Assembly: GCA_019636285.1 (NCBI GenBank)
Contig: JAHBXV010000067.1
Location: forward strand, 1-25,311
DNA length: 25,311 nucleotides
Reading direction: 5' to 3'
Source of the DNA: Planctomycetaceae bacterium
GTDB taxonomy: Bacteria > Planctomycetota > Planctomycetia > Planctomycetales > Planctomycetaceae
Below, one piece after another: positions 1-7,569 of this stretch. Under the pieces are notes generated by a model. That model saw only the letters and a list, made by a program, of their open reading frames with translations, made no database searches and was not told the DNA's origin. The position numbers were made by a program, and so were the translations under genes. Position 1 is the stretch's first letter. Each line of letters starts with the position of its first letter.

Positions 1-1
1 G

Positions 2-80
2 AGGCTATAGGCTTGAGAAAGAATTGACGCGTCGCGTCTGATTGATTTCCTGCAGCCTCCAGTCTCCGGCCTACAGCCTG
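2..80 (+). repeat. Imperfect long inverted repeat GAGGCTATAGGCTTGAG ... CGGCCTACAGCCTG enclosing the perfect palindrome GACGCG-T-CGCGTC. First member of the GAGGCT..AGGCTTGAGG spacer-repeat family of the tRNA array.
   Basis: About 14 of 17 positions pair, including G-U pairs valid only in plus-strand RNA. Related copies at 255-300 and 485-580. Confidence 0.4.
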
Positions 81-84
81 ACAA

Positions 85-158
85 GACGCGGTACGCAATT
101 GGCAAAGCGGCGAAGCTCAAACCTTCGTGGTTTGTGGGTTCGACTCCCACTCGCGTCA
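85..158 (+). tRNA. tRNA-like gene, anticodon CAA (Leu codon UUG) but class I architecture with a short 6-nt variable region
   Basis: 7-bp acceptor stem GACGCGG/TCGCGTC (one G-U pair). Anticodon arm is CGAAG-CTCAAAC-CTTCG. T-arm is GTGGG-TTCGACT-CCCAC with a canonical T-loop. Discriminator is A and no CCA is encoded. Hand-folded. Confidence 0.5.
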
Positions 159-165
159 CTGCATT

Positions 166-251
166 GGGTCGTGTTCCCAACGGCGGCCTGTAAAGCCGTT
201 GTCTCAAAACAAGTGGGGTGGAGACGAGAGGTTCAATTCCTTCACGACCTA
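166..251 (+). tRNA. tRNA-like element, 86 nt, with a Tyr-like CUGUAAA loop (GTA) but aberrant D-arm spacing; possible pseudo-tRNA
   Basis: 7-bp acceptor GGGTCGT/ACGACCT. T-arm ends ..GG-TTCAATT-CC... The hairpin GCGGC-CTGTAAA-GCCGT lies about 9 nt too close to the acceptor stem. The variable region is about 27 nt. Confidence 0.3.
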
Positions 252-412
252 TTTGGAGAGGCTTGAGACTTGAGGCCGCAGGCTTGAGGAGGGAAATTCT
301 TCGCGTCTCAGTCTTTCTCTCCGGCCGGACACGACCAGTCGGGCTGGGTAGAAAGTCCAAAAGGGACAGCCAGAGAAGACTTCTGCTCGCCGCTGGTTGC
401 TGGCGGCTTCAT

Positions 413-482
413 GGCAGGCTGGGCAGGTGTCCGACCGGCTTTCATATGGCCGGCATGCCCGGATCGTTACCGGGGCCTGCTA
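413..482 (+). tRNA. Degenerate tRNA-like element, anticodon CAT (Met/Ile2-like); probable pseudogene
   Basis: Acceptor GGCAGGC/GCCTGCT pairs. Anticodon arm is CGGCT-TTCATAT-GGCCG. T-stem is CCCGG/CCGGG but the T-loop ATCGTTA is non-canonical. The D-arm is too short. Confidence 0.3.
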
Positions 483-484
483 TT

Positions 485-580
485 GCGGAGGCTTTAGACG
501 GGAGGCTGTAGGCCTGAGGAAGAAAGAGCTGCGAGATGCGTTCTTCCTCAAGGCTCCGGTCTCACGCCTCAAGCCTGAAC
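485..580 (+). repeat. Nested hairpin spacer element of the GAGGCTTTAGAC / AGGCCTGAGGAAGAA ... TTCTTCCTCAAGGCT / CCTCAAGCCTG family
   Basis: Two nested inverted repeats read directly. The motif GGCTTGAGG or its complement CCTCAAGCC recurs at 10-17, 259-267, 281-289 and 566-577. Confidence 0.4.
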
Positions 581-582
581 AC

Positions 583-653
583 GGGCGGCTCGTCCAATGG
601 GAAGACACCTGGTTTGCACCCAGGAAATCGGGGTTCGGCTCCCCGGCCGGTCC
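583..653 (+). tRNA. tRNA-Ala(TGC)-like, with an acceptor mismatch and a G58 T-loop; possibly a pseudogene
   Basis: Acceptor GGGCGGC/GCCGGTC has one G-G mismatch. Anticodon arm is CCTGG-TTTGCAC-CCAGG. T-arm is CGGGG-TTCGGCT-CCCCG. There is no G3-U70 pair. Confidence 0.4.
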
Positions 654-660
654 ACTTGAG

Positions 661-748
661 TGGTCGATGGTTGAGCGTTGATGGTTGAGAGACAGACACG
701 AAGACTTTTCTTCTTGCCATCAACCATCGACGCTCGACCATCGACCTG
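661..748 (+). repeat. About 27-bp imperfect palindrome GGTCGATGGTTGAGCGTTGATGG ... CCATCAACCATCGACGCTCGACCATCGACC. A long RNA hairpin between the Ala-like tRNA and tRNA-Ser.
   Basis: The arms are near-perfect reverse complements. Mismatches are T in the 5' arm opposite G in the 3' arm. These form U-G pairs in plus-strand RNA but A-C on the other strand, so the structure is used as plus-strand RNA. Confidence 0.5.
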
Positions 749-751
749 ACT

Positions 752-839
752 GGAAGGTAGCCGGATACGGTTGGCCGGGCCGCACTGCTAACGCGGCTCT
801 CCCGCAAGGGAGATGAGGGTTCGAATCCCTTGCTTTCCG
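752..839 (+). tRNA. tRNA-Ser(GCT), class II
   Basis: Acceptor GGAAGGT/GCTTTCC. D-stem CCGG/CCGG. Anticodon arm CCGCA-CTGCTAA-CGCGG. Long variable arm CTCCC-GCAA-GGGAG. T-arm GAGGG-TTCGAAT-CCCTT. Discriminator G. Confidence 0.7.
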
Positions 840-954
840 CTTATTCAGCGATCAGCCACCAGCGATCAGCAATCAGCAAAAAAGAACAAATCAGTCGGCA
901 TCCGCTCGGTTTGTCACACTGACTGCTGATTCCTGTTCGCTAATGGCGACCAAC

Positions 955-1027
955 GGCCTGATGGTGAAATGGATCATCACACCCGGCTTCTAACCGGGGG
1001 GTCCGGGTTCGAATCCTGGTCGGGCCA
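955..1027 (+). tRNA. tRNA-Arg(TCT)
   Basis: Acceptor GGCCTGA/TCGGGCC. D-stem GTGA/TCAC. Anticodon arm CCCGG-CTTCTAA-CCGGG. T-arm CCGGG-TTCGAAT-CCTGG. Discriminator A. Confidence 0.75.
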
Positions 1028-1029
1028 TT

Positions 1030-1135
1030 GAAGAAGTCGTAAGTCTGGAGATAAGAGTCCAGAGCCAGAGAAAGGCAGGAAAGAGCGAACTTCCAGTCTG
1101 GCTCTCGACTCTGGACTCTCGTCTCTCGACTTTCC
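1030..1135 (+). repeat. Structured spacer GAGTCCAGAGCCAGAG ... CAGTCTGGCTCTCGACTCTGGACTCTCGTCTCTCGAC with CTCTCGAC direct repeats
   Basis: Complementary segments of 8-10 bp and short direct repeats, read directly. Lies between tRNA-Arg(TCT) and tRNA-Ser(GGA). Confidence 0.35.
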
Positions 1136-1222
1136 GGAAGGGCCTCCCGATGGGTGCCGGGCGCCGGGTGGAAACCGGTTGGGGGCGCAAGCCCCTTGCG
1201 GGTTCGACTCCCGCTCCTTCCG
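1136..1222 (+). tRNA. tRNA-Ser(GGA), class II
   Basis: Acceptor GGAAGGG/TCCTTCC. Anticodon arm GCCGG-GTGGAAA-CCGGT. Long variable arm GGGGGC-GCAA-GCCCC. T-arm GCGGG-TTCGACT-CCCGC. Discriminator G. Confidence 0.7.
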
Positions 1223-1224
1223 CT

Positions 1225-1300
1225 GTGGCCGGATCCGGTGTTGGTGACCGGAAGCAGACTGTGACTCTGCCTGACGGCGGTTCGATTCCGCTCGGCCACC
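1225..1300 (+). tRNA. tRNA-His(GTG); the genomic -1 position is T, so G-1 is not encoded
   Basis: Perfect 7-bp acceptor GTGGCCG/CGGCCAC. Anticodon arm GCAGA-CTGTGAC-TCTGC. T-arm GGCGG-TTCGATT-CCGCT. Discriminator C. Starts 3 nt after the preceding tRNA. Confidence 0.7.
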
Positions 1301-1301
1301 T

Positions 1302-1565
1302 TCAGACTCGGCGGATGCAAAGGTCCCAAATTCGGAGCGCGATGGTACCGCATGTGTTGATCAGCGGAACGATGCTCAATGCGCCGATGAGCACTCCCAG
1401 AAAATACGCAAAGAGAATGAACATCCATCCCCCAAATACAAGCAACAAGGCAATGGCCATACCTCCTTCGCCGACGTTAGCCCCGAAGAGCGTCCGCTGA
1501 AAGTAGGCATGAACCATCAGGCCGCCAAGCACTCCGCCGGATATTCGCAGTAAGAAGACGAGCAT
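1302..1565 (-). CDS. Small hydrophobic membrane protein (87 aa, about 2 TM helices), hypothetical
   Basis: ATG-initiated ORF with hydrophobic segments and a G-rich stretch upstream of the ATG. Its stop abuts the 3' end of tRNA-His (convergent). Confidence 0.45.
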   Translation of the reverse strand: MLVFLLRISGGVLGGLMVHAYFQRTLFGANVGEGGMAIALLLVFGGWMFILFAYFLGVLIGALSIVPLINTCGTIALRIWDLCIRRV

Positions 1566-1651
1566 TTGTCGTCCACCCCCCTTTTCCGGGTAGGCGTCGA
1601 CGGCCTCGAAGTATCACACGGATTTCCGGTGTACCCGGAAGGAATTTGACA

Positions 1652-2245
1652 ATGACCTCGCTCCTGCATCGACCAGCACTCGTTCTGAACCGCAACTGGC
1701 AGCCGGTGGGTGTCGCCACGGTGGCCCGCTCGTTGACGCTGGTGGTCGCCGAACGGGCGAGGATCGTCGATCCCACCGACTTCCAACAGTACACGTGGGC
1801 CGATTGGGCCAGGCTGATGCCCGCCGTGGATGAGCCGTTCGTCCAGTCGGTAACGTTTCGGGTTCGCGTGCCGGAGGTGATCACGCTGACCGACTACGAC
1901 CGCGTTCCCACGAACTCGGTCGCCTTCAGTCGGCGGAACATCTTCAAGCGCGATCGCTATACCTGCCAGTTCTGCGGCGAGCAGCCAGGGAGCGAGGAGC
2001 TGACGATCGACCACGTGCTACCCCGCTCGCGCGGCGGCACCAGCACTTGGGAGAACTGCGTTCTGGCCTGCGTGGACTGCAACAAGCGCAAGGCAGACCG
2101 CACACCAGCCGAAGCCCACATGCCGCTACGGAAGGCACCAGTCCGACCAAAGTGGCGGCCGCTCTATGCCCGGCACGACGCGCGCATTGAAAGCTGGTCC
2201 AAGTTCGTCAGCGAGACGTACTGGAATGTCGAGTTGGATGAATGA
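1652..2245 (+). CDS. HNH endonuclease family protein
   Basis: C-terminal HNH motif ...CQFCGE...LTIDHVLPRSRGG...ENCVLACVDCNKRK. ATG at 1652 is preceded by GGAAGG. The ORF track starts at an in-frame TTG at 1646. Confidence 0.85.
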   Translation: MTSLLHRPALVLNRNWQPVGVATVARSLTLVVAERARIVDPTDFQQYTWADWARLMPAVDEPFVQSVTFRVRVPEVITLTDYDRVPTNSVAFSRRNIFKRDRYTCQFCGEQPGSEELTIDHVLPRSRGGTSTWENCVLACVDCNKRKADRTPAEAHMPLRKAPVRPKWRPLYARHDARIESWSKFVSETYWNVELDE

Positions 2246-2250
2246 CAATC

Positions 2251-2285
2251 GCCGCCGAGTCCTTTTCGGATGGCTCGGCGGCTTT
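2251..2285 (+). terminator. GC-rich hairpin (9-bp stem GCCGCCGAG/CTCGGCGGC) followed by TTT, immediately 3' of the HNH gene and 5' of tRNA-Trp. Possible weak intrinsic terminator or processing stem.
   Basis: Inverted repeat read directly. The U-tract is short. Confidence 0.35.
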
Positions 2286-2287
2286 AC

Positions 2288-2357
2288 ACGAGCGAGCTCC
2301 TGGGAGAGCGGGTGGTCTCCAAAGCCGCTGGATGGGGTTCAAATCCTCACGCTCGTG
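2288..2357 (+). tRNA. tRNA-Trp(CCA)
   Basis: Acceptor ACGAGCG/CGCTCGT with an A1-U72 pair. Anticodon arm GTGGT-CTCCAAA-GCCGC. T-arm TGGGG-TTCAAAT-CCTCA. D-arm slightly irregular. Confidence 0.6.
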
Positions 2358-2363
2358 CTGACT

Positions 2364-2437
2364 GCCGACGTGGCTCGACTGAGAAAGGCGTCCGTCTTGT
2401 AAGCGGAAGCATGCTGGTGCGAATCCAGTCGTCGGCC
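2364..2437 (+). tRNA. tRNA-Thr(TGT)
   Basis: Acceptor GCCGACG/CGTCGGC. Anticodon arm TCCGT-CTTGTAA-GCGGA. T-arm GCTGG-TGCGAAT-CCAGT. D-arm poorly formed. Confidence 0.55.
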
Positions 2438-2443
2438 CTGATT

Positions 2444-2515
2444 GTCCCGATGGTGTAGCGGATTGCATTGGACTCTCCGAAGGTCCAGGCCCTGGTTCAA
2501 TTCCAGGTCGGGATA
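2444..2515 (+). tRNA. tRNA-Arg(CCG)
   Basis: Acceptor GTCCCGA/TCGGGAT. D-stem GTGT/GCAT. Anticodon arm GGACT-CTCCGAA-GGTCC. Perfect T-arm CCTGG-TTCAATT-CCAGG. Confidence 0.7.
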
Positions 2516-2524
2516 TTGAGTGAT

Positions 2525-2595
2525 GCCCTGCGGGTGTGGAGGACGCATGACTGCCTTCGAAGCAGTCGGGCGAGGTTCGATTCCTCGGTGGGGTA
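2525..2595 (+). tRNA. tRNA-Arg(TCG)
   Basis: Acceptor GCCCTGC/GTGGGGT with three G-U pairs. D-stem GTGT/GCAT. Anticodon arm ACTGC-CTTCGAA-GCAGT. T-arm CGAGG-TTCGATT-CCTCG. Confidence 0.6.
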
Positions 2596-2602
2596 CTGAT
2601 TC

Positions 2603-2673
2603 GTCCTTGGAGTGTGGTGGATGCACGCGACTCTGCGAAGGTCGTAGACCAGGTTCGACTCCTGGCAGGGACA
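2603..2673 (+). tRNA. tRNA-Arg(GCG)
   Basis: Acceptor GTCCTTG/CAGGGAC. D-stem GTGT/GCAC. Anticodon arm CGACT-CTGCGAA-GGTCG. T-arm CCAGG-TTCGACT-CCTGG. Confidence 0.65.
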
Positions 2674-2684
2674 CTGATCTTGAC

Positions 2685-2756
2685 GACGCTGAAGTCACAC
2701 GGCGTGGCGGCGGCCTGCAAAGCCGTTTTGAGTGGGTTCGACTCCCACCAGCGTCT
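2685..2756 (+). tRNA. tRNA-Cys(GCA) with U73 discriminator
   Basis: Acceptor GACGCTG/CAGCGTC. Anticodon arm GCGGC-CTGCAAA-GCCGT. T-arm GTGGG-TTCGACT-CCCAC. Discriminator T is consistent with Cys identity. Confidence 0.7.
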
Positions 2757-2862
2757 CATTGAATGGAAGGTCGTTGATGTTGTCTGTCCAGCGGCATGCA
2801 GGTCACCCGGCAGGGTTTGGCTCTGCCTGTTCCGTGAATGGGATCTGACCAGGGAACATCGA

Positions 2863-2937
2863 CGTTGGTTAGCTCAATGGCAGAGCACCAGATTCTGGAT
2901 CTGGAAGTTGCGGGTTCGACTCCCGTACCAACACCCA
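2863..2937 (+). tRNA. tRNA-Gln(CTG), 3' CCA encoded (2935-2937)
   Basis: Acceptor CGTTGGT/ACCAACA with a C1-A72 mismatch. The TA-GCTC-AATGGCA-GAGC D-arm is canonical. Anticodon arm CCAGA-TTCTGGA-TCTGG. T-arm GCGGG-TTCGACT-CCCGT. Confidence 0.65.
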
Positions 2938-3414
2938 CGAGCCGGATCGTACCCGGCACCAGCCTGTTAAGCTGGCGACGCTGCATAGCGTCTCACAATG
3001 CCTGAAGGAGGCAGACGTCCGTTTTGATCGGCTGGAGCATGTGCTCGGGCACACCAACGCTTCACGAAAGTGGAACCAAGGTGTTGCTCGCAGACCATGT
3101 TCCAGCAGCATGCGGCGACGCCTTGTAGTGCGTGGATACCGCGCTCAGCCGGCAACGGCTGAAGGGAACGGAAGCGACGACGTTCACCGGACGGGACTCC
3201 CTCGGGAGTTCGGAAAGGGAACGTCGAAGCGGAAGGACCTGGACACCGTTGCCAGCGGGCGCTCAAGCGCACTCCGCGATTCGTCCATGTGATCGGCGAA
3301 CGCTCTGCCTTCGGACGGTGTCTCTTGAGGATTCATCGCGGTACTAATGCCGCGTTTTGCTTTCGCTCGGTGCGAAGGCTGTCAGGCCGGGGCGAGACTC
3401 CGGGGAGGTGAAGG

Positions 3415-4521
3415 ATGTTTCTATTCAAGAAGTACAAAATTCGCAGCTACGAAATGGGACTCTTGTTCCGGGATGGAGAATTCCGGGGCCTGGTCGAGGC
3501 TGGAACCCGCTGGTTTTTCGACCCGCTCGGCAAGGTCCGCGTGGATATCGCGTCCCAGCGCGATCCGTGGCTGGTTCATGAGAAGCTCGACCTGATCGTC
3601 AAGTCGGGTGCGCTCGCCGAGCGCGCTGTCGTCCTGGACCTGAAGGATCACGAGCGGGCACTCGTCTGGATCGAGAACCGGTTCAGCCATGTTCTGCCAG
3701 CCGGCTTGTATGCCTACTGGACGGGACAGAAGGATGTCCGGGTTGAAGTGGTCGATGCCCGCATCGTGCGGTTCGAACATGCCGAGTTGAAGGTGATCGC
3801 CCGGTCGCCGCTGGCGCAGCGCGTCCTGGATGTCTGCACGGTCAACCGTGACCGGGTAGGCGTTCTGTTCATCGACGGTCGCTACATCGAGACGCTGACT
3901 CCGGGCCTGTACGCCTTCTGGAAGGGACAGTCCGAAGCCAAGGTCGTGGAGATCGACCTGCGGGAGACGATGGTCGACGTTGGCGGTCAGGACATCATGA
4001 CGGCCGACAAGGTGACGCTGCGGCTGAACGCCGTCGTGACTTACAAGATTGTCGATGCCCGTAAGGCGGTCAGCCAGACGGATGACGTCCGGCAGGCGCT
4101 CTACCGCGACACGCAGCTCGTCCTGCGGAGCGTGGTGGGGGCCCGTGAACTCGATGCCTTCCTGACGGAAAAAGATGCCGTCGCGACAGAGATCGAGGAG
4201 AGCGTTCGTCGTCGGGCGGGTGAGCTGGGCCTGGAAATCGCTTCGGTTGGTATCCGGGATGTGATCCTGCCGGGCGATATGAAGGATCTGATGAACAAGG
4301 TCACGGAGGCTCGCAAGGCGGCCGAGGCGAACCTGATCTCGCGTCGCGAGGAAACGGCTGCCATGCGGTCGCAGGCCAACACGGCCAAACTGCTGGCGGA
4401 CAACCCGACTCTCATGCGGCTGCGGGAGCTCGAAGTCCTGGAAAAGATCGCCTCGAACGGCAAGCTCAACATCGTCCTCGGCGACAAGGGCTTGGCCGAC
4501 AAGGTGGTCAACCTGTTGTGA
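3415..4521 (+). CDS. SPFH/band-7 (stomatin/prohibitin-like) domain protein, cytoplasmic, with a triplicated N-terminal beta-hairpin motif
   Basis: 368-aa ORF with the strong RBS GGGGAGGTGAAGG before the ATG. The C-terminal half is a typical SPFH core followed by a coiled-coil. The N-terminal 200 aa carry three tandem copies of ..LF.DG.....L.PGLYAFW.GQ....V..VD.R.. No TM segment. Confidence 0.85.
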   Translation: MFLFKKYKIRSYEMGLLFRDGEFRGLVEAGTRWFFDPLGKVRVDIASQRDPWLVHEKLDLIVKSGALAERAVVLDLKDHERALVWIENRFSHVLPAGLYAYWTGQKDVRVEVVDARIVRFEHAELKVIARSPLAQRVLDVCTVNRDRVGVLFIDGRYIETLTPGLYAFWKGQSEAKVVEIDLRETMVDVGGQDIMTADKVTLRLNAVVTYKIVDARKAVSQTDDVRQALYRDTQLVLRSVVGARELDAFLTEKDAVATEIEESVRRRAGELGLEIASVGIRDVILPGDMKDLMNKVTEARKAAEANLISRREETAAMRSQANTAKLLADNPTLMRLRELEVLEKIASNGKLNIVLGDKGLADKVVNLL

Positions 4522-5521: not shown

Positions 5522-6448
5522 TCATTCCGACGTTAATTGCCACGGCCCGGATGGACGCCAGGTCAAGGCGAACTCCTGGCCCGTAGCGAGTGCTGCTGCC
5601 AGTGGTCCCAAGAACTGCCCGAGGGCCTCGACAACGACGTGGAATTCGGCGGGGGCGATCTCCAGTCGCGACTTTCGCACGAATCCCTTCCACTGCGTCT
5701 GTTTGATCGGATCGTTCGCGAAGGCGGCGGTCAGCGCGATTGGGACCGCACTCATGGCGGTCTTGCGATTCTCAAATGTTCTCGTGACTGCCTCAGACAA
5801 CAAACGGCCGTCGAATTCAAACTGCCGCGACAAGAGCCATAGATCGAAGAAGTCCTTCAGACGGCTGTTGAGTTGCCCGAGCTTGACCATTGCCTCGAAC
5901 TTCTCGGCGACCACGGTCTCCCTGGGGTACGCGCGGAGTCGGGGCTGGGCATGGTCCAGGATCGTGGGGTAGTCGGCGAACGCGGCTTCGGGCACGACCG
6001 TGTCACCGAACCCGATGTCAATCTGCATGGGAACACGGGCATTTTCCAGGGACGCCTGAAAGGTGACTCGCACACCCGAGTAGTCCGCGTCTTCCTTGAT
6101 TTGTTGCCCTGCCACGGTCTCGACGGCAAACACCAATCCATCCGGCTCGACCGCGCGCTGACAGACATCGCGAAATACCGGGACGAGGGCATCCACGCTG
6201 TTGTTGAGCCGGCCCAGCAGGTCAATATCGCGTGTCGGACGGGAAGACAGCGCACCCCACAGGTTGAACAGGAGCGCTCCTTTGAGGATGAACCGCTCGG
6301 CATGTGGCGACTGCGACAGACGGTACAGGAATCTCTCCATCGCGAAGTATTGGAGCACTTCCTGAAAGGGACGCCCCGAGGCTACGGCCGAATTCATCAG
6401 CCGCTGGCGAACTGAGGCTGCGACGTTTTTGAGAGGCCGCTCGGTCAC
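5522..6448 (-). CDS. abiEii: AbiEii/AbiGii-family nucleotidyltransferase toxin (type IV toxin-antitoxin / abortive-infection)
   Basis: N-terminal signature ASVRQRLMNSAVASGRPFQEVLQYFAMERFLYRLSQS...ILKGALLF...RPTRDIDLL. The GTG start at 6448 overlaps the upstream stop as GTGA. An alternative ATG lies at 6397. The ORF-track extension to 7150 is an Arg/Pro-rich artefact. Confidence 0.8.
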   Translation of the reverse strand: MTERPLKNVAASVRQRLMNSAVASGRPFQEVLQYFAMERFLYRLSQSPHAERFILKGALLFNLWGALSSRPTRDIDLLGRLNNSVDALVPVFRDVCQRAVEPDGLVFAVETVAGQQIKEDADYSGVRVTFQASLENARVPMQIDIGFGDTVVPEAAFADYPTILDHAQPRLRAYPRETVVAEKFEAMVKLGQLNSRLKDFFDLWLLSRQFEFDGRLLSEAVTRTFENRKTAMSAVPIALTAAFANDPIKQTQWKGFVRKSRLEIAPAEFHVVVEALGQFLGPLAAALATGQEFALTWRPSGPWQLTSE

Positions 6449-7071
6449 AGCACGGCCTCCAGATAAGGCTGGATGACTCGCTTCACCCGACAGATTCCCG
6501 CGTAATGAAGGAGCGACTCGACGTTGACGCGGCCTTGGCGGCGGTATGCCTTGAGCGCCTCCAGCACGGTGTCGAGGCCGATCCGATTCCGGTGTTTGAA
6601 GCAGTCCGCCAGCGTTTTTTCGCGGCTGTAGATACGAACGGGGACTCCGTCGACCGTGTGTGTTTCGATCCCTTCCGAATAGGCGGGGCCGCTGAACCAG
6701 AAATGCCGCACCGGCGGATAGGACAGCCGAGGCGGTTCTGCCCCTCGGGGAATGGCGACGCAGATTTCGTGGGGGATTTGGGTGGTGAGTTCGTGCCAGG
6801 CGAGCGCCGAGATCAGGCAAAGCACCCCGTTGGGAATTCTGAGAGCGACGGTGACCAGGTCTGGATTGCCAAGCGACGGAGCGTCCGCGAGTCGGTACAG
6901 CCCCCGACTGAGCAGTTCGATCCGACCCGAATCGCGGAGAGCGTACAGAGTCCGGGGATGGATACCGGCCTCCAGAGCATCGCGCGTGCGGAGCATCCCC
7001 CCGAGGGCGCGGAAATGGTCCAGCGCCGCCGAGATCGGTCGGGGTTCTTCGGGAGGGTGTTCGACGCTCAT
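6445..7071 (-). CDS. abiEi: AbiEi-family antitoxin / transcriptional regulator (winged-HTH N-domain plus C-terminal domain)
   Basis: 208-aa ORF. LRTRDALEAGIHPRTLYALRDSGRIELLSRGLYRL is a winged HTH. Positioned immediately upstream of, and overlapping, the nucleotidyltransferase toxin. Confidence 0.85.
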   Translation of the reverse strand: MSVEHPPEEPRPISAALDHFRALGGMLRTRDALEAGIHPRTLYALRDSGRIELLSRGLYRLADAPSLGNPDLVTVALRIPNGVLCLISALAWHELTTQIPHEICVAIPRGAEPPRLSYPPVRHFWFSGPAYSEGIETHTVDGVPVRIYSREKTLADCFKHRNRIGLDTVLEALKAYRRQGRVNVESLLHYAGICRVKRVIQPYLEAVL

Positions 7072-7078
7072 GTGGATA

Positions 7079-7084
7079 AATATA
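7079..7084 (-). promoter_or_regulatory. Candidate -10 hexamer TATATT located 7 nt upstream of the abiEi ATG, implying a leaderless or near-leaderless transcript. A weak -35 CTGGCA lies 18 nt upstream, next to the direct repeat ACGCC-ACGCC.
   Basis: Read from the reverse complement of 7072-7130. No SD sequence lies between the hexamer and the ATG. Confidence 0.3.
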
Positions 7085-7569
7085 CCAGCACGGCGTGGCG
7101 TGTGCCAGTTTTTCTATCCAGGCGAGGCAGTTTTGGTAGAGGGCCAACACGGATGGGGGCTCGGCTTCCGAATGCCACGATGGACGGTGGCGGCAAGGCC
7201 ATGCGGCAAAACCGCTACAGCCGGACCGGAGATCGTGAGGGCCAACTCCCCGTAGGGCAGATTGGGATTCTCAGGGGCGGCCTCCGGGGTGCAAAAATGA
7301 GATCGACCCTCATTTACCCGCGAATTGCCGAGTCTATCACGATGAAGAACCTGTTTCAGCCCCTGTCGCTGCCGATCCTGGCGAAGCCGAGCGCCCAAGA
7401 GGTTTGTTGAAATCGCCCGTCGAGGCCTATCGCTCCGCCACGACTAACGATGTTCAGAAACGTCTCGTGGACATCCTTGATCCTCCGGAGTTACACCGGA
7501 TACAGCCCGGTGAGTGTGCGATAGGACCGAGTGAAGCTGCTTACAATCGCTCAGCAAACAACGCTTCAC

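What the first reader, a model, noticed from the sequence alone, without database searches (positions are those of the whole stretch)
85..158. tRNA with Leu anticodon CAA on a short-variable-arm (class I) scaffold
All bacterial tRNA-Leu genes carry a long variable arm. This unit folds cleanly with a 5-bp anticodon stem, a 7-nt loop CTCAAAC (U33, A37) and a canonical T-loop and acceptor stem. Its variable region is only 6 nt. It has an A73 discriminator, which is a Leu identity element. It may be non-chargeable, charged with a non-Leu amino acid, or a regulatory tRNA-like RNA.
Basis: seen in the sequence. Interest (0 to 1): 0.6.

Follow-up and report, generated by a model that had tools for sequence, protein, structure and literature searches.

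The report
Leucine tRNA without its long arm
This is a real leucine tRNA gene that lacks the usual long extra arm. It is one ordinary copy of a type common in phage tRNA sets and in the spare "tRNA arrays" of bacteria such as Planctomycetes, so it is unusual by the textbook but not a new kind of molecule.

Summary
Window 85-158 (+) is a well-formed 74-nt tRNA with anticodon CAA, a 6-nt variable region and A73 (ARAGORN; Rfam tRNA 49.7 bits against a threshold of 29).

It is not an isolated oddity. It is the first gene of the 3' half of a long tRNA array (window 1-2940, with an HNH endonuclease ORF). The array is syntenic with arrays in 71 genome loci, almost all Planctomycetota. The closest is a Fuerstiella sp. 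MAG, 96% identical over the tRNA.

Short-arm tRNA-Leu genes with all six Leu anticodons also fill phage tRNA clusters, for example mycobacteriophage Wildcat (88% identical). The Anabaena 7120 tRNA operon carries four of them.

With the anticodon masked and the variable region removed, the body scores best against long-arm tRNA-Leu models. It aligns with E. coli tRNA-Leu(CAA) except for a gap at the arm. The family keeps A73, U8, A14, G18G19, U48 and a 3-bp D stem, with many compensatory stem changes.

Bacterial LeuRS is reported to need neither the arm nor the anticodon. The most likely reading is therefore a supernumerary, leucine-accepting tRNA-Leu(CAA). Decay into a pseudogene is the main rival. 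Charging was not tested here. Novelty is low: a new member of a known but little-discussed kind.

The parts
85..158 (+). tRNA-Leu(CAA), class I size (74 nt, no encoded CCA)
   Evidence: ARAGORN; Rfam RF00005 49.7 bits; parse
85..91 (+). acceptor stem, 5' strand (pairs with 151-157)
   Evidence: 7/7 pairs; compensatory changes at 2-71 and 4-69 across relatives
94..109 (+). D arm: 3-bp stem CGC/GCG, A13.A22 mismatch, 10-nt loop AAUUGGCAAA (family norm is 11 nt)
   Evidence: aligns with the E. coli leuX D loop AAAUCGGUAGA
111..127 (+). anticodon arm: stem CGAAG/CUUCG, loop CUCAAAC, anticodon CAA at 118-120
   Evidence: the same loop in the MFE fold
128..133 (+). short variable region UGGUUU (6 nt), ending in U48
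   Evidence: the gap relative to class II tRNA-Leu lies exactly here
134..150 (+). T arm GUGGG-UUCGACU-CCCAC
151..158 (+). acceptor stem 3' strand and discriminator A73 (position 158)
   Evidence: A73 in 62/62 array relatives and 154/154 phage class I tRNA-Leu
1..2940 (+). 3' half of a long tRNA array: 14 ARAGORN tRNAs plus a Tyr-like gene, cut off by the window edge
   Evidence: synteny with 71 genome loci; BLAST to L182 and others
167..249 (+). class II tRNA-Tyr(GUA)-like gene missed by ARAGORN; it occupies the Tyr slot next to Leu(CAA) in related arrays
   Evidence: Rfam evalue mode, 27 bits; 85-253 is 96% identical to L182; Tyr(gta) follows Leu(caa) in many arrays
1646..2245 (+). HNH endonuclease ORF embedded in the array
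   Evidence: Pfam HNH_5/HNH, E = 1e-14; tblastn homologues in 36 genome-array loci and 17 phage loci; HNH linkage to L-arrays is reported in PMC8421152

Best explanation
Window 85-158 encodes a genuine leucine tRNA for UUG codons that descends from an ordinary long-arm (class II) tRNA-Leu by loss of the variable arm. It is one gene of a supernumerary long tRNA array (an 'L-array' or 'tRNA array unit') on the chromosome of a planctomycete related to Fuerstiella. Inferred mechanism: the array is transcribed as a polycistron. RNase P and 3' processing release the tRNA, and the CCA-adding enzyme adds CCA because none is encoded. The host leucyl-tRNA synthetase then charges it with leucine. In bacteria that enzyme is reported to read the discriminator A73 and the D-loop/T-loop elbow (U8:A14, 15:48, G18G19, A20a), not the long arm or the anticodon. 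The tRNA then reads UUG alongside a canonical housekeeping tRNA-Leu(CAA). Shown here: the gene, its fold, its family, its Leu-type body and selection on its structure. Inferred, not shown: expression, leucylation and use in translation.
For: (1) It is a real tRNA. (2) It sits in the Leu(CAA) slot of a conserved array order (...Leu(taa)-Leu(tag)-Asp-Leu(caa)-Tyr-Glu-Leu(cag)-Met-Leu(gag)...) in 71 genome loci, nearly all Planctomycetota. (3) Structure is under selection. Among 62 unique array copies every stem pair is at least 95% paired, with compensatory swaps at 4-69 (A-U 33, G-C 26), 28-42 (G-C 32, C-G 30) and 50-64 (C-G 31, U-A 28). Among 154 unique phage class I tRNA-Leu all 20 Watson-Crick stem pairs are at least 95% paired, against 39-99% (mostly 40-60%) in shuffles. 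The tRNA is 96% identical to the closest genome (L182), while the flanking spacers cannot be aligned. L185 shares the window's shortened D loop but differs by a compensatory 2-71 change. (4) The body is Leu-type. A73 is present in 100% of copies. U8, the 13.22 mismatch on a 3-bp D stem, the 11-nt D loop NAAYYGGYANA and U48 match class II tRNA-Leu. Isotype HMMs with the anticodon masked and the V region removed put the window tRNA in class II Leu (34.9 against 22.0 bits; 29.8 against 23.2). All 71 planctomycete Leu(CAA) copies do the same. (5) It aligns with the verified E. coli leuX tRNA-Leu(CAA) with a gap only at the V arm. (6) A natural arm deletion is caught in the act: the L156 Leu(CAG) keeps the class II scaffold of its array orthologues but has a 5-nt V region. 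(7) The D-arm motif plus a short V region is tied to Leu anticodons: 95 of 126 unconstrained matches in viral contigs. (8) In the same loci Ser stays long (115/117) and Tyr mostly long (53/57), while Leu is mostly short. In the loci picked without reference to Leu the counts are Ser 0 short/12 long and Tyr 3/9. This is what the synthetase rules predict. (9) Established biochemistry: E. coli LeuRS needs A73 and the elbow, not the arm or the anticodon, and arm-less variants are still charged (review PMC9976931). (10) The Anabaena 7120 trn array has four tRNA-Leu genes, all short. 23 of its 26 tRNAs were aminoacylated in vivo and were found on polysomes (PMC8421152), so at least one short tRNA-Leu is charged.
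Against: There are no expression or charging data for this gene or for any planctomycete array. Planctomycete clusters were described as degenerate, fast-evolving and probably dispensable (PMC4807772). This window's array has lost several genes that its closest relative keeps, and it carries ~100-nt hairpins between genes. This copy has a 10-nt D loop (2 of 62 relatives) and U at position 15, where E. coli LeuRS prefers the A15:U48 pair. C38 breaks the A36A37A38 motif used by the i6A37/Cm34 modification enzymes. Acid gels in Anabaena show charging, not which amino acid. Phage Gaia must replace a disrupted host tRNA-Leu(CAA), and it uses an 83-nt class II gene.
Confidence: 0.65

Rival explanations
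1. It is an inactive relic: a structurally intact but unexpressed or poorly charged gene in a decaying, dispensable tRNA cluster.
For: The clusters are described as degenerate with low Cove scores, and only tRNA-Ile(UAU) is exclusive to them, so Leu(CAA) is redundant (PMC4807772 and its S2 text). Neighbouring genes are poor: Met 412-483 has no canonical T loop and is missed by Rfam. Genes have been lost relative to L182. This copy has a 1-nt D-loop deletion and U15. No promoter-like site was found in 1-3500.
Against: All stems and invariant bases are intact, and it is the third best Rfam score in the window. It is 96% conserved while the spacers have diverged beyond alignment. The shortened D-loop variant has persisted across a compensatory 2-71 change (L185). 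Phage Wildcat carries a similarly shortened D loop.
Confidence: 0.25
2. It is a class I tRNA of another identity that acquired a CAA anticodon, so UUG would be misread as another amino acid.
For: Its size fits class I. Natural anticodon-switched, mistranslating tRNAs exist elsewhere (my own knowledge, not tested here).
Against: The body classifies as Leu with the anticodon masked. It has A73 and a Leu-type D arm. There is no G3:U70: the pair is C3-G70. The same scaffold carries all six Leu anticodons and almost no others. A class II to class I deletion intermediate was observed.
Confidence: 0.04
3. It is not primarily a translation substrate. It would act as a decoy or resistant spare against tRNA-targeting toxins or nucleases, or as a regulatory tRNA-like RNA.
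For: A DUF1814/AbiEii-family toxin (MenT3) uses the long variable loop as an anchor and does not modify an arm-less tRNA-Ser (PMC11541572). Phage tRNAs are proposed to escape anticodon nucleases (PMC10264068). An AbiEii-family gene lies at 5522-7150. C38 is invariant in the planctomycete copies.
Against: The AbiEii gene has no homologue in the related array loci held here, although those loci have short flanks. tRNA-Leu was not a preferred MenT3 target. Nothing distinguishes this gene from a working tRNA, and resistance would add to translation rather than replace it.
Confidence: 0.06

Closest known systems
Short (73-75 nt) tRNA-Leu genes of mycobacteriophages, e.g. Wildcat genes 113 (UAG) and 114 (CAA), and Bxz2 gene 9
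   Same: Class I size, A73, D arm xGC-AAAxxGGCAAA-GCx, anticodon loop CUCAAAC. Wildcat gene 114 is 87.7% identical over 65 nt and has compensatory differences in all four stems. A related query found 186 phage records, and almost all of those listed are annotated tRNA-Leu.
   Different: Those genes sit in lytic or temperate phage genomes of Actinobacteria. This one is chromosomal in a planctomycete array. As far as the searched literature shows, none has been tested biochemically.
tRNA-Leu genes of the Anabaena sp. PCC 7120 trn operon (L-array, delta plasmid; Santamaria-Gomez et al. 2021, PMC8421152)
   Same: A long array with an HNH endonuclease. All four tRNA-Leu genes (UAA, GAG, UAG, CAA) are short. 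The operon's tRNAs are inducible, aminoacylated and polysome-associated.
   Different: The gene order and the D-arm subtype (GCC-CAAUUGGCAGA-GGC) differ, and CCA is encoded. The array is plasmid-borne in a cyanobacterium. The paper's main text does not mention tRNA-Leu or a short arm.
Cluster-encoded tRNA-Leu(UAG) with a short variable loop in Mycobacterium mucogenicum/phocaicum (Behra et al. 2019, PMC6582537)
   Same: This is the one explicit published remark found that an array tRNA-Leu has a short variable loop while the housekeeping isoacceptor has the normal long one. That cluster also has an HNH gene.
   Different: Different anticodon and host. The remark is made in passing and no function was tested.
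Engineered E. coli tRNA-Leu variants lacking the variable arm (Larkin et al. 2002; Asahara et al. 1993, 1998, as summarised in PMC9976931)
   Same: They show that LeuRS charges arm-less tRNA-Leu provided A73 and the D/T-loop elbow are kept. The natural family keeps these features.
   Different: These are laboratory constructs, and their kinetics are usually reduced. The window copy has U15 and a shorter D loop, which those studies suggest could matter.
Animal mitochondrial tRNA-Leu(UUR)
   Same: A natural class I-sized tRNA-Leu whose identity rests on A73 and A14.
   Different: It has an unrelated origin, an A/U-rich degenerate structure and a dedicated mitochondrial LeuRS. No homology is claimed.
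Degenerate tRNA gene clusters of Planctomycetes (Kim et al. 2016, PMC4807772; Tran et al. 2016, PMC4758250)
   Same: Same phylum and the same kind of locus. The clusters are supernumerary and evolve fast.
   Different: In the text searched, neither paper comments on the shape of the tRNA-Leu genes. The conserved order across 71 loci and the conserved Band 7 neighbour seen here suggest more stability than 'degenerate' implies.

Membership tests
tRNA (Rfam RF00005) | Cloverleaf with conserved U8, A14, G18G19, U33, GTTCRA T loop and 7-bp acceptor stem; score above the gathering threshold | tested here: met
   49.7 bits against 29, full-length match 1-71; ARAGORN
Bacterial tRNA-Leu (identity set for E. 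coli-type LeuRS) | Discriminator A73 | tested here: met
   A at 158; 62/62 array and 154/154 phage relatives
Bacterial tRNA-Leu (identity set for E. coli-type LeuRS) | Elbow elements U8:A14, G18G19, A20a and T-loop partners U54-U55-C56...A58 | tested here: met
   U8; D loop AAUUGGCAAA aligned with leuX AAAUCGGUAGA; T loop UUCGACU
Bacterial tRNA-Leu (identity set for E. coli-type LeuRS) | A15:U48 pair and the position of G18G19 in an 11-nt D loop | tested here: inconclusive
   U48 is present. The family consensus has A15 and an 11-nt loop, but this copy and its sub-clade read A14-U15, and this copy's loop is 10 nt. The requirement of the planctomycete LeuRS is unknown.
Bacterial tRNA-Leu (identity set for E. 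coli-type LeuRS) | Leu anticodon (NAG or YAA); needed for decoding, not a LeuRS identity element | tested here: met
   CAA at 118-120
Bacterial tRNA-Leu (identity set for E. coli-type LeuRS) | Body resembles tRNA-Leu rather than other isotypes when the anticodon is hidden | tested here: met
   Home-made isotype HMMs: LeuII 34.9 against Tyr 22.0; LeuII 29.8 against Tyr 23.2. The tRNAscan-SE isotype models were not available.
Bacterial tRNA-Leu (identity set for E. coli-type LeuRS) | Actual aminoacylation with leucine | not testable with these tools
   Indirect only: arm-less E. coli variants are charged (PMC9976931), and the Anabaena array tRNAs are charged (PMC8421152)
Class II (long variable arm) tRNA | Variable arm of 10 nt or more forming a stem-loop | tested here: not met
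   Variable region of 6 nt. It is therefore not a class II tRNA, although it descends from one.
Long tRNA array / tRNA array unit (Tran 2016: at least 20 tRNA genes, at least 2 per kb; Santamaria-Gomez 2021 L-array) | High density of tRNA genes on one strand | tested here: met
   14-15 tRNA genes in 2.9 kb, all on the + strand
Long tRNA array / tRNA array unit (Tran 2016: at least 20 tRNA genes, at least 2 per kb; Santamaria-Gomez 2021 L-array) | At least 20 genes in the unit | tested here: inconclusive
   The window starts inside the array. Syntenic arrays in relatives hold up to about 40 genes, with about 20 more upstream of Leu(caa).
Long tRNA array / tRNA array unit (Tran 2016: at least 20 tRNA genes, at least 2 per kb; Santamaria-Gomez 2021 L-array) | Associated HNH homing endonuclease gene | tested here: met
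   ORF 1646-2245; homologues in 36 array loci and 17 phage loci; linkage reported in PMC8421152
Long tRNA array / tRNA array unit (Tran 2016: at least 20 tRNA genes, at least 2 per kb; Santamaria-Gomez 2021 L-array) | Supernumerary: redundant with housekeeping genes | not tested
   The rest of the genome is not available. Kim 2016 S2 text reports that only tRNA-Ile(UAU) is exclusive to the clusters in the planctomycetes they studied.

The most novel reading that the evidence does not exclude
Loss of the long arm is adaptive rather than neutral. Phage and array tRNA-Leu genes would shed the arm because it is the one class II feature their synthetase does not need. An arm-less tRNA-Leu would escape host toxins or nucleases that grip class II tRNAs by that arm (MenT/AbiEii-type nucleotidyltransferases are a precedent). 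The arrays would then act as toxin-proof spare tRNA sets during phage attack or translational stress. By-products that are not excluded: about half of all phage tRNA-Leu genes belong to this little-described class, and several array isoacceptors conserve a non-U8 core.
Probability: 0.15. Interest if true: 0.65.

Novelty: new member of a known kind. Interest (0 to 1): 0.3.

Why it matters
For this locus, little: it is one more copy of a tRNA type that is already annotated as tRNA-Leu in about 190 phage records found here and was noted once in a mycobacterial array. The wider pattern is more useful. In mobile tRNA sets, tRNA-Leu often lacks the long arm, while tRNA-Ser and mostly tRNA-Tyr keep it. 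This is a natural replication of the biochemical rule that LeuRS, unlike SerRS and bacterial TyrRS, does not read the arm. It also warns annotators, and anyone hunting for genetic-code anomalies, that a class I tRNA with a Leu anticodon in a phage or array context is expected and is not evidence of recoding. Finally, it points to planctomycete arrays as an untested system for asking whether such spare tRNAs are expressed, charged or resistant to tRNA-targeting toxins.

Tried and rejected
- **Source contig:** exact-protein look-ups of the HNH ORF from both possible starts found nothing on record. The window's contig and the upstream half of the array could not be retrieved.
- **Plasmids:** BLAST of 60-260 against PLSDB plasmids gave no match.
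- **Anabaena plasmid:** the first 50 kb of the delta plasmid hold no tRNAs. The array is in the last 6 kb.
- **Anabaena supplements:** these are not held. I could not read which 3 of the 26 genes were the pseudogenes, so only the argument that at least one short Leu is charged is available.
- **Phage Gaia:** it must supply tRNA-Leu(CAA) after disrupting the host gene. I checked it as possible genetic proof that a short tRNA-Leu works, but its gene is 83 nt and class II.
- **Promoters and terminators:** a scan of 1-3500 gave no promoter-like site and no more terminator-like sites than shuffles.
- **Alternative fold:** a fold with a different anticodon is rejected, because three methods agree on the loop.
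- **AbiEii linkage:** a link between the downstream AbiEii gene and the arrays is not supported by the loci held.
- **Literature:** searches for an explicit description of class I tRNA-Leu in phages or bacteria found only the passing remark in PMC6582537.
- I could not scan a complete planctomycete genome for its housekeeping tRNA-Leu(CAA).

Full report
**1. The observation**

Window 85-158 (+) is a tRNA. ARAGORN reports tRNA-Leu(caa) at 85-159. Rfam's tRNA model matches 85-158 over its full length at 49.7 bits, against a gathering score of 29 (E = 4.8e-08), and this is the third best tRNA in the window.

My parse gives these parts:
- acceptor stem GACGCGG/UCGCGUC, 7 of 7 pairs
- U8 A9
- D arm CGC-AAUUGGCAAA-GCG
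- G26
- anticodon stem CGAAG/CUUCG
- loop CUCAAAC, with anticodon at 118-120
- a 6-nt variable region, UGGUUU
- T arm GUGGG-UUCGACU-CCCAC
- discriminator A73
- no encoded CCA

The unconstrained MFE fold keeps the acceptor, anticodon and T arms and the same 7-nt loop. Every structural statement in the finding is correct.

**2. Context in the window**

The gene is not isolated. Window 1-2940 holds 14 ARAGORN tRNAs on the + strand. There is also a class II tRNA-Tyr(GUA)-like gene at 167-249 that only a permissive Rfam search detects, and an HNH endonuclease ORF at 1646-2245.

The rest of the window encodes ordinary bacterial proteins: an SPFH/Band 7 protein, an AbiEii-family protein, two AcrB-type transporters, a HlyD-type adaptor and a P-type ATPase. 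G+C content is about 60%.

**3. Relatives elsewhere**

BLAST against phage genomes found mycobacteriophage Wildcat gene 114, annotated tRNA-Leu. It is 87.7% identical over 65 nt. Wildcat has two short tRNA-Leu genes, UAG and CAA, in a tRNA cluster: 24 ARAGORN genes including a tmRNA in the stretch fetched.

I scanned viral contigs for the D-arm motif plus a short variable region plus an NAR anticodon. This returned 116 loci. ARAGORN finds 187 short and 59 long tRNA-Leu in them, with all six Leu anticodons on the short scaffold.

With the anticodon left free, 95 of 126 matches still carry Leu anticodons. In less biased subsets about half of phage-contig tRNA-Leu genes are short: 12 short against 8 long, and 59 against 56. 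In the first of these subsets tRNA-Ser is 0 short against 12 long and tRNA-Tyr 3 against 9.

One scan of 185,579 species genomes with a Leu(CAA)-specific pattern gave 71 loci. Almost all are Planctomycetota, plus one Granulicella and one Nitrospira. In every locus the short Leu(CAA) lies in a long array of tRNA genes with a conserved order: Phe-Glu-Pro-Pro-Ile-Lys-Ile-Lys-Thr-Gly-Pro-Asn-Ser-Gly-Gln-Gln-Ser-Val-Leu(taa)-Leu(tag)-Asp-Leu(caa)-Tyr-Glu-Leu(cag)-Met-Leu(gag)-Val-Thr-Ala-Ala-Ser-Arg-Ser-His-Trp-Thr-Arg-Arg-Arg-Cys. The window is the 3' half of such an array.

The closest locus is L182, a Fuerstiella sp. MAG. It is 96% identical over 85-253 and about 88% over the last tRNAs and the Band 7 gene, but the spacers do not align. 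The Band 7 gene follows the array in 12 loci, and the HNH gene recurs in 36 genome loci and 17 phage loci.

**4. Is it a leucine tRNA?**

Four lines of evidence say yes.

(a) Shared features. The family shares the specific marks of long-arm tRNA-Leu from the same loci:

| Feature | Short tRNA-Leu | Long-arm (class II) tRNA-Leu |
|---|---|---|
| A73 | 62/62 array copies, 154/154 phage copies | 87/87 |
| D stem | 3 bp with an unpaired 13.22 | same |
| D loop of 11 nt (NAAYYGGYANA) | 58/62 and 101/154 | 66/87 |
| Last variable base U (U48) | 61/62 and 149/154 | 86/87 |

(b) Isotype models. I built HMMs per isotype with the anticodon masked and the variable region removed. They place the window tRNA in class II Leu at 34.9 bits against 22.0 for the runner-up, and 236 of 324 short Leu tRNAs go the same way; other held-out isotypes were assigned correctly in 57-93% of cases. 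With models trained only on phage contigs the window scores 29.8 against 23.2. All 71 planctomycete Leu(CAA) copies and all 49 Leu(GAG) copies go to class II Leu.

(c) Alignment with E. coli. The E. coli leuX tRNA-Leu(CAA) sequence was verified against 5,425 genomes. It aligns with the window tRNA along its whole length, with a gap only at the arm.

(d) A deletion caught in the act. Array Leu(CAG) is normally class II, with a 13-15 nt arm. In L156 the orthologous gene, in the same slot and on the same scaffold, has a 5-nt variable region.

**5. Is it under selection?**

- Among 62 unique planctomycete copies every stem pair is at least 95% paired. Frequent two-sided changes occur at 4-69, 28-42 and 50-64.
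- Among 154 unique phage copies all 20 Watson-Crick stem pairs are at least 95% paired, against 39-99% (mostly 40-60%) after shuffling. Position 13-22 is a conserved mismatch, as in class II tRNA-Leu.
- The gene is 96% conserved against L182 while the adjacent spacers have diverged beyond alignment.
- The window's unusual 10-nt D loop is shared with L185, which differs by a compensatory A2-U71/G2-C71 change. Phage Wildcat also has a 10-nt loop.

**6. How it most likely works**

Established biochemistry is summarised in PMC9976931. E. coli LeuRS requires A73 and the elbow (U8:A14, A15:U48, G18G19, A20a and the D/T-loop contacts). It does not require the anticodon or the long arm, and variants lacking both arms are still charged. 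SerRS, by contrast, needs the arm.

The natural distribution found here fits this rule: Leu often loses the arm, Ser does not, and Tyr rarely does. The same scaffold also switches freely among Leu anticodons.

The Anabaena 7120 trn array has four tRNA-Leu genes, all short. In that system 23 of 26 array tRNAs were aminoacylated in vivo, tRNAs were found on polysomes, and the operon is induced by translational stress (PMC8421152). Since only three genes were undetected, at least one short tRNA-Leu is charged.

I therefore infer that this gene is a supernumerary, leucine-accepting tRNA-Leu(CAA). For planctomycetes, Kim et al. report that only tRNA-Ile(UAU) is exclusive to such clusters, so a canonical Leu(CAA) is expected elsewhere in the genome.

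**7. Caveats and rivals**

- There are no expression or charging data for any planctomycete array. The clusters were called degenerate, with low Cove scores.
- The window's array is eroded compared with L182. Glu(ctc), Leu(cag), Leu(gag), Val, Thr and some Ala genes are missing, and the Met gene has no canonical T loop.
- This copy reads A14-U15 and has a shorter D loop. For E. coli LeuRS both changes touch identity elements.
- C38 breaks the A36A37A38 motif used by the i6A37/Cm34 modification enzymes.

I give the relic reading 0.25. A foreign identity gets 0.04, because the body, A73, the C3-G70 pair and the anticodon spectrum all argue against it. A decoy or regulatory role gets 0.06. The MenT3 precedent for arm-dependent targeting is real, but that toxin prefers tRNA-Ser, and the window's AbiEii gene is not linked to arrays in the loci held.

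**8. Comparison with what is known, and novelty**

Long tRNA arrays are described in Planctomycetes (PMC4758250, PMC4807772, PMC8421152), in mycobacteria and in phages (PMC5966550, PMC6409571). Short tRNA-Leu genes are routinely annotated as tRNA-Leu in phage records: a related query found 186 records. One paper remarks that a cluster-encoded tRNA-Leu(UAG) has a short variable loop (PMC6582537).

A 2020 review of non-canonical tRNAs and the 2023 identity review do not describe a bacterial or phage tRNA-Leu of this shape in the passages searched. The kind is therefore known at the level of annotation but little discussed. This gene is a new member of it. It is not a class II tRNA, because that defining feature was tested and not met, but it works like, and descends from, tRNA-Leu.

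**9. Verdict**

Interest is 0.3. The most novel reading not excluded is adaptive loss of the arm to evade arm-reading toxins (probability about 0.15).

Noticed in passing
window 167-249 (+): A class II tRNA-Tyr(GUA)-like gene missed by ARAGORN. It has acceptor GGUCGUG/CACGACC, anticodon loop CUGUAAA and C8 instead of U8. It scores only 27 bits (against the tRNA-Sec model) in permissive Rfam mode. It is 96% conserved with L182 and sits in the Tyr slot of related arrays.
   Followed up: partly
window 1-84, 484-582, 654-751, 841-954, 1028-1136 (probably also 254-411, not folded): Spacers between the first tRNA genes are ~85-115-nt hairpins (z = -2.0 for 1-84; -3.4 to -10.5 for the other four). 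Their arms look like short imperfect tandem repeats, and three share a GAGGCU..UAGGC..UGAGGA motif by eye. The closest relative L182 has ~10-nt spacers and extra tRNA genes at these places, and the median gap in related arrays is 17 nt. Origin and role are unexplained.
   Followed up: partly
L148-L218 (planctomycete arrays); window 752-840, 1137-1223, 2525-2596, 2603-2674, 2685-2757: Several array isoacceptors consistently lack the near-universal U8 while keeping perfect acceptor stems. Examples: Arg(gcg) and Arg(tcg) have mostly G8; Cys has G8 or A8; Lys(ctt) has A8; Thr(ggt) has A8; all four Ser have A8 or C8; Met has mostly G8 or C8 and a non-canonical T loop. Because this is conserved across genomes, it looks like a maintained non-canonical core rather than random decay.
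   Followed up: partly
L156:812-886 (-): A Thermoguttaceae MAG carries a Leu(CAG) gene on the usual class II array scaffold, but with the 13-15-nt arm replaced by UAUUU. This is a recent natural conversion from class II to class I.
   Followed up: yes
viral loci L132, L135, L141 and other matches: Class I-sized tRNAs with a GGCAAAGC D arm also carry GUA (Tyr, 8 matches) and UUA (ochre-suppressor type, 10 matches) anticodons in viral contigs. Short-arm tRNA-Tyr would be unusual for bacteria. The UUA ones may be suppressors.
   Followed up: no
window 1136-1221 (+): The tRNA-Ser(GGA) gene just reaches the gathering score of Rfam's selenocysteine tRNA model (47.5 against 47). The anticodon is GGA, not UCA, so this is a false Sec call on a G+C-rich class II tRNA.
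   Followed up: no
window 5522-7150 (-): A 542-aa protein with an AbiEii/DUF1814 nucleotidyltransferase toxin domain at residues 273-500, and a long N-terminal extension, lies 2.6 kb downstream of the array. Relatives of this family (MenT) inactivate tRNA 3' ends. No homologue was found in the short flanks of the related array loci.
   Followed up: partly
window 3415-4521 (+): The SPFH/Band 7 gene directly follows the array in 12 of the related planctomycete loci (74-88% nucleotide identity in the best-matching loci). This suggests a stable chromosomal position for the array within the phylum rather than repeated recent insertion.
   Followed up: partly
window 116-122; L148-L218: All 62 unique planctomycete Leu(CAA) copies have C38 (loop CUCAAAC). 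E. coli leuX and most phage short tRNA-Leu have A38. C38 breaks the A36A37A38 motif required for i6A37 and Cm34 formation.
   Followed up: no
window 2863-2937 (+): The last tRNA, Gln(CUG), is the only one with an encoded CCA. It has a C1-A72 mismatch, is among the most canonical by Rfam (62.1 bits), and stands ~105 nt after the Cys gene. It may not belong to the array proper.
   Followed up: no
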